Sequence record: NC_031047.1
Reading direction: 5' to 3' (one strand)
Origin: Escherichia phage HY03
DNA: 64,000 bases
Shown: positions 56,044 to 61,344 of the stretch, piece after piece
How positions within the stretch are numbered: position 1 is the first letter of the stretch
How the letters are laid out: every line of letters begins with the position of its first letter
Position numbers and translations under genes: made by a program
The notes under the pieces: model-generated
The model's database searches: none
Seen by the model: the letters and a program-made list of their open reading frames with translations, nothing else
Told to the model about the DNA's origin: nothing

Positions 56044-56607
56044 ATGAAAACCTATGCCGAATTTTTAACTGAAGCAGCAAAATTACCATCTGAAGCAGAT
56101 CTTACTAAAGTATTCTTCCACTTGGACCCAAAAGACCGGGGCGATTTTCTTAAGTGGAAAGCTAAAGCTATTGAAATGTATAACATCGATAACAGTTCTT
56201 TTACGATGAGCCAAGAAAATAGTTTCAATAAAGCATTTTTCAAAATTTCTAAGAAATTGGCATCTGGCGCTCAGGTTTCTAAATCTGCATTAGCTACTCC
56301 TGAACGTGCACCTGTTAAAATTTCTAAGAATATGTTTGACACTAAAAAATATGTCAATGCTTTGAATAAAGCTCTTGATGCATTGGATGATGCAAAGAAG
56401 GCAGCCCGCGATCTTCAAGACGTGTATACCGATTTTGATCGTAAAACTAAAGGTTCTATTTCAAATAGCGAACGCAATAGTGTAAGTGTTTATTCTGATA
56501 GCCTTGATGTTCTTGGCGATGCATATACTGAAATTAAAAATCGTATTAACACCGCATCTAAGCTAAAAGCTGCTGCAGAAGCTATAATAACTAAACTAGG
56601 TAAATAA
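56044..56607 (+). CDS. internal-protein-like capsid-targeted protein
   Basis: 187 aa; N-terminal MKTYAEFLTE|A matches the T4 capsid targeting sequence cleaved by gp21. Confidence 0.6.
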   Translation: MKTYAEFLTEAAKLPSEADLTKVFFHLDPKDRGDFLKWKAKAIEMYNIDNSSFTMSQENSFNKAFFKISKKLASGAQVSKSALATPERAPVKISKNMFDTKKYVNALNKALDALDDAKKAARDLQDVYTDFDRKTKGSISNSERNSVSVYSDSLDVLGDAYTEIKNRINTASKLKAAAEAIITKLGK

Positions 56608-57375: not shown

Positions 57376-57969
57376 ATGAACACACTGAAGAAAATTGTTG
57401 AGTTTATTCGCACTAAACTTGGTTCTGCTATGGCTAAAAATTTATCCGTTGAAGAACAGTATACTGCTGCGGCAGCAAAACTACTTGATAAGATTAAAGA
57501 TCTAAAAACTGCTTCTGTTAAATCTATTAATGAAGAAAAGCGTATTCGTGAACTTATTGTCGAAAAGAATAAGCAGGCCGAATCAAAAGAGCGTGAAATT
57601 CGCAAGCTTCTTTCTGAAGGTCAAGATGTAACAATGCATGCTAAACTTGGTTTGCTATATCGTCGAACAGCTGAACAGTTGACTACTAAAGCTGATGGTT
57701 ATGCTGAAATGCGAATTGAAATCGCCAAGAAAGTAGTTGAGTTAGATGATGCTCGCCAAGAACTTGCAGTTAAATTGGAATATATCCGTGAAACTCGTGC
57801 AGCAAATGCCCTTGGAATTAGTACTGCTGATGATGTAGTTGAAATTGCAGCGCTGACTAAGGTTGATATTGAAGATACTCTTGCTCGAGTTGAAACCTTT
57901 AATGGTAATATTTCTGGGGTTGAAACTACCTCTGCCGATGTTCAGGAATACATTAATTCTCTGAAATAA
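57376..57969 (+). CDS. hypothetical coiled-coil protein (197 aa)
   Basis: Lys/Glu-rich helical sequence; hairpin GGGGCTTAGGCCCC downstream. Confidence 0.5.
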
Positions 57970-58010
57970 TGATAAGGGGCTTAGGCCCCTATTACTTGGA
58001 GTAAATAGGA

Positions 58011-58619
58011 ATGAAAATGCAAAGTGATTTCAATTCAATGTTTGAAGAGTTCCAAAGACAGGTTGATGTTCCAGACCAATTGCTAAATGCTCTTAAACGC
58101 ATGGCAGAAGGACGTAATTATTATTGGGGTTCTTCATATGAAACAGACGAAAGCCTTTCTGGAAGATTTTCCAGAGGTAAAAAGTCTTTAATACGTCCTG
58201 GAATACTTATTAACAGTATTGAATCAATTTATTCATTGACATGCGATTTTGATGTTGAATTTACTGATTTCATTTCTCCTGAATGGACAGTTTGTTATTT
58301 AAACGACGATTTTGATTATCTCGGTGTTTATAGTTTAAGTGACGCATGGTTTAAACGTAACTTACAAAAGTCAAATTTATTCTATATTGATACTACAGTA
58401 AAATTTCAGGGAAAGAAATATTTCTTTACTCTTATAGTTGATTCTGAAACGAAGCATGAAAATAAACGTATTCTTAGTAAAAGAAATATCTTGAATATTG
58501 TTGATGATCTTTTTGATAAATTAGTGGAAAATCCTAATTTTGAAAGTGATTTATTACTAGAAAAATTTGTTAAGGAATGTAGAGAATATGTCAAAACCAT
58601 CACTATACCTTCCAAGTAA
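58011..58619 (+). CDS. hypothetical protein (202 aa)
   Basis: First of four consecutive ORFs sharing a C-terminal F-x-x-E-C-R-K/E motif. Confidence 0.5.
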   Translation: MKMQSDFNSMFEEFQRQVDVPDQLLNALKRMAEGRNYYWGSSYETDESLSGRFSRGKKSLIRPGILINSIESIYSLTCDFDVEFTDFISPEWTVCYLNDDFDYLGVYSLSDAWFKRNLQKSNLFYIDTTVKFQGKKYFFTLIVDSETKHENKRILSKRNILNIVDDLFDKLVENPNFESDLLLEKFVKECREYVKTITIPSK

Positions 58620-58980
58620 ACCGTTGAAGTATGAATTAAAGCGTCAGATAATTTCTACTGATGTATTAATAGGTCCTGTTATACTTATATCATTTGTAAT
58701 TCTATTGATTATTGGAGGTGTTTTAGATGTTATGACTGATATTGATTCTGGCGAAATACTTGTGTTAATGCTAATTCTTCCATTAATAGTTCCATTTTTA
58801 TTAGTACCTATAAATTGGGTAGGATACTGGTATCAAGGAAGGCATTATCGTAAACGTGTACGTGATTGGAAAGCACAGTGTAAAAAGATTAAAAAGGAAC
58901 ACCAGCTTAAACTTGCTGCGTATGAATTTGATGAAATTATGAAATTTGTTAAGGAATCACGATGCAAAAGCCAAAACTAA
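58588..58980 (+). CDS. small membrane protein (two predicted TM helices)
   Basis: ORF 58567..58980; probable start MSKPSLY with RBS; hydrophobic stretches VILISFVILLIIGGVL and ILVLMLILPLIVPFLLVPI. Confidence 0.5.
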   Translation: MSKPSLYLPSKPLKYELKRQIISTDVLIGPVILISFVILLIIGGVLDVMTDIDSGEILVLMLILPLIVPFLLVPINWVGYWYQGRHYRKRVRDWKAQCKKIKKEHQLKLAAYEFDEIMKFVKESRCKSQN

Positions 58981-59324
58981 ATAAAGTCAAATATTCGCTT
59001 CCTGAGTCATTTTTAATTTTTGCTGTGGCGTTGGCTGCAGCTCTTGCAGGTAGTATTTTTGGATTGTTAATTGACTGTCTTATTTTAAACATCGACGACA
59101 CAGTAAATATAACAGAAGTTTGGAGTGAGCTTTGTTATACTAAAATTATTTCATTGTTTTCATTCTTTGGTACAATGTTATATTTTCATTATGATAATTT
59201 TAAAATAAATTGGCAAAGAAAAAAGGATTACAAAATACAATTAAAAGAATATAACAACTACGTGTCTTATATTGAAAAAGAATCAATGGAAGAGTTTGTG
59301 AGTGATTGTAGGAAAATCAAATGA
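58962..59324 (+). CDS. small membrane protein
   Basis: 120 aa; hydrophobic N-terminal segments; C-terminal ...EEFVSDCRKIK. Confidence 0.5.
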   Translation: MQKPKLNKVKYSLPESFLIFAVALAAALAGSIFGLLIDCLILNIDDTVNITEVWSELCYTKIISLFSFFGTMLYFHYDNFKINWQRKKDYKIQLKEYNNYVSYIEKESMEEFVSDCRKIK

Positions 59325-59809
59325 TTTTAAAAACTCGCTGGTATGATTTAGATGATGGGGATGATGGCATTTCAGTTGATAGAGTTGATTGGAATGGTTG
59401 TTCCGAAGATACAAAGAAACGATTAATTAGGGAGTTTAGAATGGGATATCAAGCAGCTAAACCATTTACTGTAACAGATGATAAATTCGTGTGTATTCAA
59501 AATGGTCGCGCTAAGTTAACGAATGCCGATTGGTTCACAGATAAGAAGGTTATTCTGTGGTATATCATTAGTCTTCCTATATCATCGTTCGTATTTTACT
59601 TTTTTATAAAAAATCCAATGGACAGAATAGGAGATTGGGTTCTTTTAACTATACTTGTTAATATTTTTACAGCAGCAGTATTATCAGGAATATGGCGTAT
59701 GTTCATTGAAATGCCATGGCGTTTACGCAGACAGCAAAAGATTTTTGATGAAAAGAAATATGCTCAAAATTTAAATAACTTTATCACTGAATGCAGGAAA
59801 TTAAAATGA
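59321..59809 (+). CDS. small membrane protein
   Basis: 162 aa; two hydrophobic segments; C-terminal ...NFITECRKLK. Confidence 0.5.
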   Translation: MILKTRWYDLDDGDDGISVDRVDWNGCSEDTKKRLIREFRMGYQAAKPFTVTDDKFVCIQNGRAKLTNADWFTDKKVILWYIISLPISSFVFYFFIKNPMDRIGDWVLLTILVNIFTAAVLSGIWRMFIEMPWRLRRQQKIFDEKKYAQNLNNFITECRKLK

Positions 59810-60246
59810 AAACATTATCAGCTGGTATTATCTTCATGACAGAAGATAAAGATTTATTTATGGGTCGGGTTACTGGTTCTCGTAAGCCTGGAATGATGGC
59901 ACATCGCTGGGATATTCCAAAGGGACGTGTAGAAAGTTCTGATTTGAATGCACTGGAAGCTGCAAAAAGAGAATGCTTAGAAGAGACCGGTTTTAGCAAT
60001 TATAATCCAGACCTTCTAGAAGACCTAGGTGTATTTAAATATTCTAGTAATAAAGACTTACAGTTATTTTATTATACGATTCCAGTAGAGCATGAGATGT
60101 TTAGAAATTGCCATTGTGAGTCTTATTTTGAAAATAAAGATGGTGTTATGATTCCAGAGATGGACGCTTTTGCTCTTATTCCTCGTACTCAGTGGCAATA
60201 TGTGATGGGTCCTTCACTTTACCGAATAATGAACAACCTCTTTTAA
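59791..60246 (+). CDS. nudE: Nudix hydrolase NudE (e.1)
   Basis: 151 aa; Nudix box GRVESSDLNALEAAKRECLEETGF; directly upstream of lysozyme gene. Confidence 0.8.
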   Translation: MQEIKMKTLSAGIIFMTEDKDLFMGRVTGSRKPGMMAHRWDIPKGRVESSDLNALEAAKRECLEETGFSNYNPDLLEDLGVFKYSSNKDLQLFYYTIPVEHEMFRNCHCESYFENKDGVMIPEMDAFALIPRTQWQYVMGPSLYRIMNNLF

Positions 60247-60777
<531 letters not shown>

Positions 60778-60870: not shown

Positions 60871-61344
60871 ATGAAAACATATCAAGAATTTATTACTGAA
60901 GCAGCTATTAATTCTCAAATTATTGCTGAATCTTTTACTGATCTTTTGAAATTTAAAAAAGGACAGAAAATCACTGCTGTATTGGATGATGGTACAGAAG
61001 TTGAGATGGATGTACAGGGATATAATTATGCAGTAGATGGAAAACTGTATAATAAATCTCATGCTAAATTTGATTCATTTGACGACTTTGTTAATACAGT
61101 TGAAGATGAAAAAACTCGTCGATCCATTGCAACTGGTGATGCTAAGGTTCTTATGGCACATGGTCATGAACGCATTCGCGCTAAACAGAATAAAATGGGT
61201 GAAGATAATTTTGCATTAGTTGGTTATCAATCTGGTAAGCAAACTTATGGCTATCAGCGTACTGCTACCATGTATAATAAAAATGGTAAAATCGCTTTCG
61301 TGAATAGTAAAGGTTCTATTCAGTACGTTAAATCGTTCAAATAA
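60871..61344 (+). CDS. internal protein (ipII/ipIII position) with capsid targeting sequence
   Basis: 157 aa; N-terminal MKTYQEFITE|A is the T4 internal-protein targeting signal; lies beside gene e. Confidence 0.65.
   Translation: MKTYQEFITEAAINSQIIAESFTDLLKFKKGQKITAVLDDGTEVEMDVQGYNYAVDGKLYNKSHAKFDSFDDFVNTVEDEKTRRSIATGDAKVLMAHGHERIRAKQNKMGEDNFALVGYQSGKQTYGYQRTATMYNKNGKIAFVNSKGSIQYVKSFK

What the first reader, a model, noticed from the sequence alone, without database searches (positions are those of the whole stretch)
58011..59809. Tandem family of four small proteins sharing a C-terminal F-x-x-E-C-R-K tail
Four consecutive ORFs end with near-identical motifs (...FVKECREYVK..., ...FVKESRCKSQN, ...FVSDCRKIK, ...FITECRKLK), and three of them have two hydrophobic membrane-spanning-like segments. 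A locally duplicated membrane-protein family next to nudE and lysozyme could relate to superinfection exclusion, lysis timing or envelope remodelling.
Basis: seen in the sequence. Interest (0 to 1): 0.45.

Follow-up and report, generated by a model that had tools for sequence, protein, structure and literature searches.

The report
Shared C-terminal tail on T4 e.2–e.5 proteins
Four back-to-back early genes of a T4-like phage (e.5, e.4, e.3, e.2) end in the same short peptide, which is kept by selection on the protein across T-even phage genera and is probably a common docking helix, although its partner and the genes' function are unknown.

Summary
The window is a Tequatrovirus (T4-like) genome, and the four ORFs are T4 genes e.5, e.4, e.3 and e.2, upstream of nudE and e.

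- **Statistics:** the tails are as quoted. They share a 9-residue block far beyond composition (z = 9.5; 0 of 1000 shuffles).
- **Uniqueness:** across a genome's worth of sequence, F-[IVL]-x-x-C-[RK] occurs four times. Three are these tails.
- **Conservation:** in six other groups of T-even relatives, the soluble e.5-position protein and the 1–3 two-TM proteins after it carry φ-x-x-F-[IV]-x-x-C-R. F, C and R are three of only five invariant columns in e.5-type proteins.
- **Level of selection:** Cys uses TGT and TGC equally and Arg uses all six codons. Selection therefore acts on the protein, not on the embedded Shine-Dalgarno.
- **Relationships:** e.4 and e.3 are paralogues. e.2 shares the two-TM architecture and the tail. 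e.5 is soluble and shares only the tail.
- **Copy number:** it changes by recombination between the repeats.

Best reading: a cytoplasmic C-terminal docking or assembly helix shared by one gene module. This part is inferred. I found no evidence for a role in lysis or superinfection exclusion.

The parts
58011..58619 (+). e.5: soluble 202-aa early protein, first gene of the module
   Evidence: ORF. T4 e.5. phrog_2607 E=1e-108. No TM segment. Precomputed PF26876 on homologues. Low-confidence alpha/beta AF2 model with a C-terminal helix at 181-196.
58566..58583 (+). e.5 tail core F186-V-K-E-C190-R191
   Evidence: Read. F186, C190 and R191 are three of only five invariant columns among 16 e.5-position proteins from all sampled groups.
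58588..58980 (+). e.4: 130-aa protein with two TM segments (31-49, 57-75), N-in/C-in
   Evidence: phrog_2604 E=3e-71. Precomputed PF26873 on homologues. AF2 model: TM1 helix 24-49, then TM2 continuing as one long helix 54-128 (low confidence).
58867..58884 (+). e.4 internal tail-like copy W94-K-A-Q-C98-K99
   Evidence: MAFFT aligns the e.3 and e.2 tails to this site. BLASTP aligns e.4 82-102 with e.2 142-162. The equivalent EWEQKC is present in Gapriver-type e.4.
58945..58962 (+). e.4 tail core F120-V-K-E-S-R125, with Cys shifted by two residues (RC)
58962..59324 (+). e.3: 120-aa membrane protein (TM1 19-37; a weaker second hydrophobic stretch at about 57-78 that did not reach the KD cut-off)
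   Evidence: phrog_2330 E=4e-59, plus a full-length hit to e.4's phrog_2604 at E=0.002. hhalign e4-e3 P=8e-6.
59295..59312 (+). e.3 tail core F112-V-S-D-C-R117
59321..59809 (+). e.2: 162-aa protein with a 77-aa N-terminal soluble part, two TM segments (78-96, 106-124) and the tail. This copy is intact, unlike T4's.
   Evidence: phrog_2203 'membrane protein' E=1e-77. The T4 copy carries a -1 and a +1 frameshift. hhalign e3-e2 P=5e-5, tail only. A natural in-register e.4/e.2 chimera exists, P0143.
59780..59797 (+). e.2 tail core F154-I-T-E-C-R159
58588..58619 (+). e.5/e.4 overlap of 32 nt. The e.5 tail end (YVKTITIPSK*) and the e.4 N-terminus (MSKPSLYLPSK) are read from the same DNA in two frames.
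   Evidence: This junction is homologous at DNA level to the e.4/e.3 junction (TTTGTTAAGGAAT...ATG.AAA.CCA..CTA; read).
58962..58980 (+). e.4/e.3 overlap of 19 nt (RCKSQN* over MQKPKL)
59321..59324 (+). e.3/e.2 ATGA stop-start overlap. The AGGA of the Arg-Lys codons lies 7 nt upstream of the ATG.
59806..59809 (+). e.2/nudE ATGA stop-start overlap. An alternative nudE ATG lies at 59791.
57376..57969 (+). e.6: conserved 197-aa protein that precedes the module in every group sampled (context, function unknown)
57972..57992 (+). G+C-rich hairpin between e.6 and e.5. This is the only intergenic gap next to the module.

Best explanation
SHOWN. The region is a conserved early gene module of T-even phages. 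It consists of one soluble e.5-type protein followed by one to three overlapping, presumably translationally coupled genes for small inner-membrane hairpin proteins. In this window there are three: e.4, e.3 and e.2. The hairpin genes arose by tandem duplication. This is clear for e.4 and e.3, and probable for the C-terminal half of e.2. Every member, soluble or membrane-bound, ends in an amphipathic helix with the core phi-x-x-F-[I/V]-x-x-C-R. Purifying selection on the amino-acid sequence maintains it. Because the 2-TM proteins are N-in/C-in, all the tails face the cytoplasm. The repeated tail and junction DNA also acts as a substrate for unequal recombination that removes or fuses copies.

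INFERRED. The tail is a common protein-protein interaction helix. Either it zips the members of the module together, tethering soluble e.5 to the membrane hairpins, or it docks them all on one shared phage or host partner at the inner membrane early in infection. The biological role of the module is unknown. It is dispensable in the laboratory, which fits an accessory, host-dependent function.
For: Motif is real and confined to this cluster:
-.

Selection acts on the protein:
- Among 51 distinct tail DNAs from seven groups of phages, Phe is TTT 41 / TTC 8 and Cys is TGC 21 / TGT 20. Arg uses all six codons (AGA 16, AGG 12, CGT 11, CGC 5, CGA 2, CGG 1).
- In 16 e.5-position proteins that otherwise share few conserved positions (alignment), the only invariant columns are M1, N98, F186, C190 and R191.
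- The motif persists where it is not in the next gene's ribosome-binding region. In Dhaka- and Gapriver-type e.5 the Cys codon lies about 28 nt before the next ATG. L010 8852-9157 (NFIKECRGK) and L025 7845-8153 (LFIAKCRAK) are each followed by a gap.

Common architecture of 17 two-TM members:
- M..KP N-terminus, TM1, short loop, TM2, basic stretch, helix, tail.

Topology:
- K/R-rich N- and C-terminal parts and a short acidic loop.

Helical tail:
- AF2 places e.5 181-196 and e.4 54-128 in helices.
- Hydrophobic residues fall at -3, 0, +1 and +4.

Conserved synteny:
- e.6, then a soluble tail protein, then overlapping 2-TM tail proteins, in every group.

Paralogy:
-.

Recombination at the repeats:
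- L006 lacks e.2, and the deletion ends lie inside the e.3 and e.2 tail codons (TGCAGGAAA), leaving a hybrid tail FVIDCRKLK.
- P0143 is an in-register e.4(1-31)/e.2(88-162) chimera.

Expression:
- In T4, the transcripts of e.2 to e.6 are classed as early, and all four proteins were detected by mass spectrometry (PMC9697503, supplementary files 4 and 6).
Against: - No partner is known and no interaction was computed.
- Both AF2 models are of low confidence (pLDDT 59 and 62).
- The Cys is replaced by V, M, A or S in several 2-TM members (FIKNVRRK, FLKEMRK, FIESARKK, FVKESRC), so no Cys-specific chemistry is required in them.
- In the short soluble paralogues the tail may simply be the last helix of a small domain rather than a free docking peptide.
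- In Tequatrovirus the K-E or R-K codons of the motif also carry the Shine-Dalgarno of the next gene, so part of the local DNA conservation has a second cause.
- T4 tolerates a frameshifted e.2.
Confidence: 0.45

Rival explanations
1. By-product of gene junctions. The tail is only what the upstream reading frame happens to encode while crossing a copied translation-initiation cassette (Shine-Dalgarno plus start) of the next gene. The peptide itself has no function.
For: - In the window every tail lies 5-30 nt before the next ATG.
- AAGGA (Lys-Glu codons) or AGGA (Arg-Lys codons) sits 6-9 nt upstream of the e.3, e.2 and nudE starts.
- In L025 the x-x codons are AGG AGC, that is AGGAG, 9 nt before the next start.
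- The e.5/e.4 and e.4/e.3 junctions are homologous DNA.
Against: - The conserved residues F, C and R are not Shine-Dalgarno bases. Their third codon positions vary freely, and Arg switches between the AGR and CGN codon families.
- The motif is invariant in e.5-type proteins whose Cys codon lies about 28 nt from the next ATG. It also occurs on genes followed by an intergenic gap.
Confidence: 0.12
2. Recombination linker. The repeated tail-coding DNA exists because it promotes in-frame gain, loss and shuffling of genes in this hyperplastic region, as a coding counterpart of the PeSL cassettes.
For: - The e.2 deletion in L006 has its ends in the tail repeats.
- Copy number varies from 1 to 3 among groups.
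- e.2 was found in 532 phage records, against 648 for e.4 and 630 for e.3.
- PeSL-mediated shuffling in such regions is documented (PMC2839356, PMC4122927).
Against: - The shared DNA is only about 9-14 nt, and synonymous sites are not conserved. The DNA itself is therefore not what selection keeps.
- The other natural rearrangement found (P0143) has its junction in TM1, not in the tail.
- Deletion between short direct repeats is an expected side effect of any repeat.
Confidence: 0.08
3. First reader's functional guess. The membrane proteins act in superinfection exclusion, lysis timing or envelope remodelling. This concerns the role of the module and is compatible with the docking-helix reading.
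For: - They are small inner-membrane proteins made early.
- They lie next to nudE and e in Tequatrovirus.
- From established knowledge, known T4 exclusion and lysis-control proteins (Imm, Sp, RI, RIII) are also small envelope proteins.
Against: - No similarity to any such family.
- Adjacency to e and nudE is not conserved outside Tequatrovirus and L025.
- e.2 is inactivated in T4. No lysis phenotype is ascribed to it in the papers I could search.
Confidence: 0.15
4. Chance resemblance of Lys/Glu-rich C-termini.
For: Pairwise BLASTP scores are weak (E = 0.007 to 2.3).
Against: - Shuffle test z = 9.5, 0 of 1000.
- The motif is unique to this cluster in a genome's worth of ORFs.
- It is conserved across phage groups.
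Confidence: 0.01
5. The tail is a prohead-protease (gp21) site or a capsid-targeting-like signal. It contains [I/V]-x-E and resembles the MKTYQEF-I-x-E N-terminal targeting sequence of the internal proteins.
For: - F-I-T-E in e.2 against E-F-I-T-E in the internal-protein genes at 60871 and 56044.
- From established knowledge, gp21 cleaves after [L/I]-x-E.
Against: - Glu at +3 is present in only 24 of 51 tails.
- The signal is C-terminal, not N-terminal.
- Three of the carriers are integral membrane proteins.
- Cleavage would remove only 3-16 residues.
Confidence: 0.03

Closest known systems
T4 genes e.2, e.3, e.4 and e.5 (NP_049738-NP_049741). PHROGs 2203, 2330, 2604 and 2607. Pfam PF26896, PF26873 and PF26876 appear as precomputed labels on e.2-, e.4- and e.5-type homologues.
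   Same: These are the same genes, at 85-99% protein identity and in the same order and overlaps.
   Different: - The databases hold them as four separate families of unknown function.
- I found neither the shared tail nor the e.4/e.3/e.2 relationship recorded in any annotation or paper I could search.
- The window's e.2 is intact (162 aa), whereas the T4 reference e.2 is cut to 102 aa by a frameshift.
Capsid targeting sequence (CTS) of T4 internal proteins IPI, IPII and IPIII
   Same: A roughly 10-residue terminal peptide is shared by otherwise unrelated proteins encoded near one another, and it sends them to one destination. It even contains F-I-x-E. This is a 'works like' comparison only.
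   Different: - The CTS is N-terminal, acts late, targets the prohead core and is removed by gp21.
- The tail here is C-terminal, sits on early soluble and membrane proteins, and its Glu is not conserved.
PeSL promoter/stem-loop cassettes of T4-type hyperplastic regions (PMC2839356, PMC4122927)
   Same: Short sequences repeated at gene boundaries in a hyperplastic region, associated with insertions and deletions. L006 lost e.2 by recombination between two tail repeats.
   Different: - PeSLs are intergenic regulatory DNA conserved as DNA.
- Here the repeat is coding, is conserved as protein, and the genes overlap with no intergenic space.
Small T4 envelope proteins Imm, Sp, RI and RIII
   Same: Small early proteins of the cell envelope. 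Imm also has two TM segments (established knowledge).
   Different: No sequence or profile similarity. No phenotype is known for e.2 to e.5.

Membership tests
   hhalign on orthologue-only profiles: P = 8.2e-6, 84% probability, 39 columns. e.3 matches phrog_2604 over 14-126 of 130 at E = 0.002. Iterated HMM searches merge the two families.
Tandem paralogue family e.4/e.3/e.2 | e.2 is homologous beyond the tail | tested here: inconclusive
   hhalign e3-e2 gives P = 5e-5 but over only 12 tail columns, and e4-e2 gives P = 0.14. The e.3-seeded iteration does recruit e.2 (E about 1e-20 after inclusion). e.2 has the same TM1/TM2/basic/helix/tail layout, and an in-register natural chimera exists (P0143).
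Tandem paralogue family e.4/e.3/e.2 | e.5 belongs to the same family | tested here: not met
   e.5 has no TM segment. e5-e4 hhalign finds only a 12-column chance match, and e5-e2 matches 10 tail columns. e.5 has its own orthologue series in all groups.
Shared C-terminal motif phi-x-x-F-[IV]-x-x-C-R | Present at the C-terminus of all four window proteins, beyond chance | tested here: met
   e.4 has Ser at the Cys position, with a Cys two residues later.
Shared C-terminal motif phi-x-x-F-[IV]-x-x-C-R | Conserved at the amino-acid level rather than the nucleotide level | tested here: met
   Codon table of 51 distinct tails. Invariant F, C and R in the e.5 series.
PeSL cassette | Intergenic early promoter (-35/-10) plus stem-loop at the gene boundary | tested here: not met
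   The genes overlap by 4-32 nt. The promoter-like count equals the shuffle expectation, 22 against 21. The only hairpin lies between e.6 and e.5.
T4 capsid targeting sequence / gp21 substrate | N-terminal MKTYQEFI-x-E with cleavage after Glu | tested here: not met
   The motif is C-terminal, and Glu at +3 occurs in only 24 of 51 tails. True CTS genes are at 56044 and 60871.
Imm / Sp / holin-antiholin (superinfection exclusion or lysis control) | Profile match to the family | tested here: not met
   No such hits in Pfam, PHROGs, NCBIfam or PADLOC.
Imm / Sp / holin-antiholin | Exclusion or lysis phenotype | not testable with these tools
   Needs phage genetics.
Sulfurtransferase (label carried by some NCBI records for e.3 and e.4 homologues) | Rhodanese or sulfurtransferase domain | tested here: not met
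   The labels are seen. No such domain appears in Pfam or NCBIfam.

The most novel reading that the evidence does not exclude
The F-[I/V]-x-x-C-R tail is a previously unrecognised address label used throughout the T-even phages. It would be a C-terminal, early-phase counterpart of the N-terminal capsid-targeting sequence. It would recruit a changeable repertoire of soluble and membrane accessory proteins (e.5-type, e.4/e.3/e.2-type, and the 94-109-aa tail proteins of other groups) to a single receptor at the cytoplasmic face of the inner membrane. New accessory genes could then be plugged into the same machinery simply by acquiring the tail.
Probability: 0.2. Interest if true: 0.7.

Novelty: new variant of a known kind. 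Interest (0 to 1): 0.42.

Why it matters
About half of T4's genes have no known function, and the hyperplastic regions are where host-specific accessory functions are thought to lie. Three results here make this cluster experimentally approachable:
- Four "unrelated hypothetical proteins" form one module.
- The most conserved feature of the module is a short cytoplasmic C-terminal helix.
- That helix is under protein-level selection in every T-even group sampled.

The tail peptide can be used as bait to find the partner. Three point mutations (F, C, R) give clean tests. Natural variants with 1-3 copies give a ready comparison set. If the tail is a general recruitment signal, it would explain how such regions can swap genes while keeping them functional.

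Tried and rejected
- **Pairwise BLASTP of the four proteins:** too weak to decide, so I replaced it with profile comparisons and a shuffle test.
- **Pfam, NCBIfam and PADLOC scans:** only sub-threshold noise. PHROGs gave family identities, all of unknown function.
- **Sequence search of solved structures with the e.6 and e.5 profiles:** nothing below E = 0.3.
- **AF2 model of e.4:** a helical hairpin at low confidence. I did not use it for a fold search.
- **Exhaustive HMM search of 1.84 billion representative proteins with a combined e.4/e.3/e.2 profile:** only 7 representatives, all close relatives. The family could not be widened.
- **Literature searches by gene name:** nothing on these genes. 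Only omics tables and the PeSL papers were useful.
- **Considered and rejected:** a gp21 or CTS-like signal, the 'sulfurtransferase' label, the chance explanation, and a purely nucleotide-level (Shine-Dalgarno) explanation. Reasons are given under the rival explanations.
- **Considered from memory only, not pursued:** a C-terminal degron, a membrane-targeting amphipathic helix and an FtsZ-tail mimic. The acidic residues, the absence of the key Pro, and the variable distance to the C-terminus do not fit, and none could be tested here.
Full report
**1. Identity of the region**

The 2-kb stretch is 96-97% identical to many Tequatrovirus genomes. Against the T4 record, which runs in the opposite orientation, the ORFs are e.6, e.5, e.4, e.3, e.2, nudE and e.

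| Gene | Window coordinates | Length |
|---|---|---|
| e.6 | 57376-57969 | 197 aa |
| e.5 | 58011-58619 | 202 aa |
| e.4 | 58588-58980 | 130 aa |
| e.3 | 58962-59324 | 120 aa |
| e.2 | 59321-59809 | 162 aa |
| nudE | 59806-60246 | 146 aa from this ATG |
| e | 60283-60777 | 164 aa |

The genes from e.5 to nudE overlap by 32, 19, 4 and 4 nt. The only gap is 41 nt between e.6 and e.5, and it holds a G+C-rich hairpin. PHROGs places the four proteins in four separate families of unknown function. Homologues carry three separate precomputed Pfam labels: PF26876 on e.5-type, PF26873 on e.4-type and PF26896 on an e.2-derived segment.

**2.

- The best common 9-residue block is LEKFVKECR / IMKFVKESR / MEEFVSDCR / LNNFITECR. 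It scores 155, against 56 +/- 10.5 for composition-preserving shuffles. None of 1000 shuffles reached it.
- In all ATG-ORFs of the window on both strands, [FWLIM][IVL]..C[RK] occurs three times, all at these C-termini.
- Adding the rest of T4 gives 802 ORFs and 76,352 residues. The strict motif then occurs four times: these three tails and one internal site in gp30.3.
- Hydropathy gives two strong TM segments in e.4 and two in e.2. e.3 has one strong segment, and its second hydrophobic stretch did not reach the cut-off. e.5 has none.
- The parts flanking the TM pairs are rich in Lys and Arg and the connecting loops are short. The hairpins are therefore N-in/C-in, and the tails face the cytoplasm.

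**3. The motif is widespread in T-even relatives and is kept as protein**

I used e.6 as an anchor to fetch 21 loci from IMG/VR and took four more from GenBank phages. Together they cover Tequatrovirus, Mosigvirus, Dhakavirus, Gaprivervirus and three more distant groups whose e.6 is 60-65% identical.

- **Synteny.** In every group the order is e.6, then a soluble e.5-position protein, then one to three overlapping 2-TM genes. All of these end in phi-x-x-F-[I/V]-x-x-C-R or a close variant.
- **Extra carriers.** Further tail-bearing proteins occur nearby in other groups. These are 94-109-aa soluble proteins ending SFIKYCRGKHVS, AFIKQCRRNQNVS, LFIAKCRAK or LFLEYCRSDVQL, and a 101-aa 2-TM protein ending NFIKECRGK. 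The 94-95-aa proteins match the C-terminal half of the e.5 profile.
- **Invariant columns.** In an alignment of 16 e.5-position proteins from all groups, the only invariant columns are M1, N98, F186, C190 and R191.
- **Codon usage.** Across 51 distinct tail DNAs, Phe is TTT 41 / TTC 8 and Cys is TGC 21 / TGT 20. Arg uses all six codons. Position -3 is L, I, M or V in 36 of 51. Free third positions, together with AGR/CGN switching at Arg, show that selection acts on the peptide.

**4. Relation to the ribosome-binding sites**

In the window, the Lys-Glu codons (AAGGAA) or the Arg-Lys codons (AGGAAA) of the motif supply the Shine-Dalgarno of e.3, e.2 and nudE at 6-7 nt spacing. In L025, AGG AGC (Arg-Ser) supplies an AGGAG. 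Some motif positions therefore do double duty.

This cannot explain the conserved F, C and R. It also cannot explain tails whose Cys codon lies about 28 nt from the next start (Dhaka- and Gapriver-type e.5), or tails followed by a gap (L010 8852-9157; L025 7845-8153).

**5. Relationships among the four proteins**

- **e.4 and e.3** are paralogues. hhalign gives P = 8e-6 over 39 columns. e.3 hits e.4's PHROG over its full length. Iterated HMM searches merge the two families. Both share the M-x-K-P N-terminus and the overall layout.
- **The junctions** e.5/e.4 and e.4/e.3 are homologous DNA (TTTGTTAAGGAAT...ATG.AAA.CCA..CTA). The same DNA encodes the upstream tail end in one frame and the downstream M-x-K-P-x-L N-terminus in another. 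The duplicated unit therefore included the junction.
- **e.4** also has an internal tail-like copy (DWKAQCKKIK) about 25 residues before its terminal one.
- **e.2** has an extra 77-residue N-terminal part. Its C-terminal half has the family layout. Profile similarity to e.3 is significant only over the tail (P = 5e-5), although iteration does recruit e.2.
- **e.5** is soluble and unrelated apart from the tail.
- **Breadth.** An exhaustive profile search of 1.84 billion representative proteins found only seven, all close relatives. No relatives were detectable beyond close T-even phages.

**6. The cluster is in flux**

- L006 lacks e.2. The deletion ends lie inside the e.3 and e.2 tail codons (shared TGCAGGAAA), which leaves an in-frame hybrid tail FVIDCRKLK joined to nudE.
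- Phage UFV05 encodes a 106-aa in-register chimera of e.4(1-31) and e.2(88-162) (P0143).
- Mosigvirus L010 lacks e.3.
- L006 has a frameshifted e.5.
- T4 itself has a -1 frameshift in an A-run of e.2 and a +1 frameshift 78 nt later. A resequenced T4 record also matches e.2 in two pieces.
- By tblastn, e.4, e.3 and e.2 were found in 648, 630 and 532 phage records respectively.

**7. Expression**

In T4, the transcripts of e.2 to e.6 and nudE are classed as early. All four proteins were detected by mass spectrometry: e.4 and e.5 in the early protein class, e.2 in the middle class and e.3 in the late class (PMC9697503, supplementary files 4 and 6).

**8. Structure**

The AF2 models are of low confidence. 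For e.5 (pLDDT 59) the model is an alpha/beta body with the tail in a terminal helix at 181-196. For e.4 (pLDDT 62) it shows TM1, then TM2 continuing as one long helix to residue 128. Fold and sequence searches against solved and predicted structures gave nothing usable.

**9. Interpretation**

What is shown:
- A conserved early module with a shared cytoplasmic C-terminal helix under protein-level selection.
- Tandem duplication of the 2-TM genes.
- Recombination between the repeats.

What is inferred:
- The helix is a common interaction surface. Its hydrophobic face is formed by positions -3, 0, +1 and +4, and it carries a conserved Arg. It would either assemble the members with one another or dock them on one partner.
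- I give the whole statement a confidence of 0.45. The descriptive part is about 0.9 and the mechanism about 0.35.

The rivals (junction by-product, recombination linker, gp21/CTS-like signal, chance) are each contradicted by specific results given above. Its main argument, the neighbourhood of nudE and lysozyme, fails outside Tequatrovirus and L025.

**10. Novelty**

The genes are known T4 ORFs. I found neither the shared tail nor the family relationship in any annotation or searchable paper. The nearest concepts are the N-terminal capsid-targeting sequence shared by unrelated internal proteins, and the PeSL boundary cassettes of hyperplastic regions. The tail differs from both. I rate it a new variant of a known kind, of moderate interest.

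Noticed in passing
L001 (T4 NC_000866, record 67490-67960), compared with window 59321-59809: The T4 reference e.2 is annotated as 102 aa because of a 1-nt deletion in an A-run (window 59607-59613). A compensating 1-nt insertion follows 78 nt later, and after it the frame again reads ...NNFITECRKLK. A resequenced T4 record (KJ477684) and Salmonella phage SG1 also match e.2 in two pieces, so the frameshift looks real rather than a sequencing error.
   Followed up: partly
L003 3731-4524; L004 3186-4225; L011 6862-8112; L019 6710-8334; L021 6567-8139: In Mosig-, Dhaka- and Gapriver-type phages and more distant groups, the module is followed by a second tandem family of 65-105-aa proteins. All end in W-[VI]-S-S-S-x-x-C or a close variant (GAWVSSSALC, GGWVSSSSEC, FWFTSSMSC, WYPSSC, GWQSSSYQC), with the Cys as the last residue. 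No ORF with this ending was found in the window.
   Followed up: partly
window 56044-56607 and 60871-61344: Two ORFs start with the internal-protein capsid targeting sequence (MKTYAEFLTEAA, MKTYQEFITEAA). They flank the e.8-to-e region, and their F-I/L-T-E core resembles the tail motif. I judged this a coincidence.
   Followed up: partly
P0143 (Escherichia phage vB_EcoM-UFV05, 106 aa): A natural in-register chimera of e.4 residues 1-31 and e.2 residues 88-162, which implies loss of e.3 and of the e.2 N-terminal part.
   Followed up: partly
L006 5636-6251 (IMGVR_UViG_2974787500_000001): e.5 is split by a frameshift into 145-aa and 92-aa ORFs in a phage that has also lost e.2.
   Followed up: no
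GenBank and NCBI labels of homologues: Homologues of e.2 to e.4 carry unsupported product names in some records: 'sulfurtransferase', 'host specificity protein', 'DNA primase' and 'major capsid protein'. No domain search supports any of them.
   Followed up: yes
window 57376-57969 (e.6): e.6 is far better conserved (60-98% identity across all sampled groups) than the module that always follows it. It had no significant Pfam or PDB sequence match, and its function and any link to the tail proteins are open.
   Followed up: partly
window 59791-59809: nudE has two possible in-frame starts: ATG at 59791, as in the T4 annotation (151 aa), and ATG at 59806, as in close relatives (146 aa). Both overlap the e.2 tail.
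   Followed up: no
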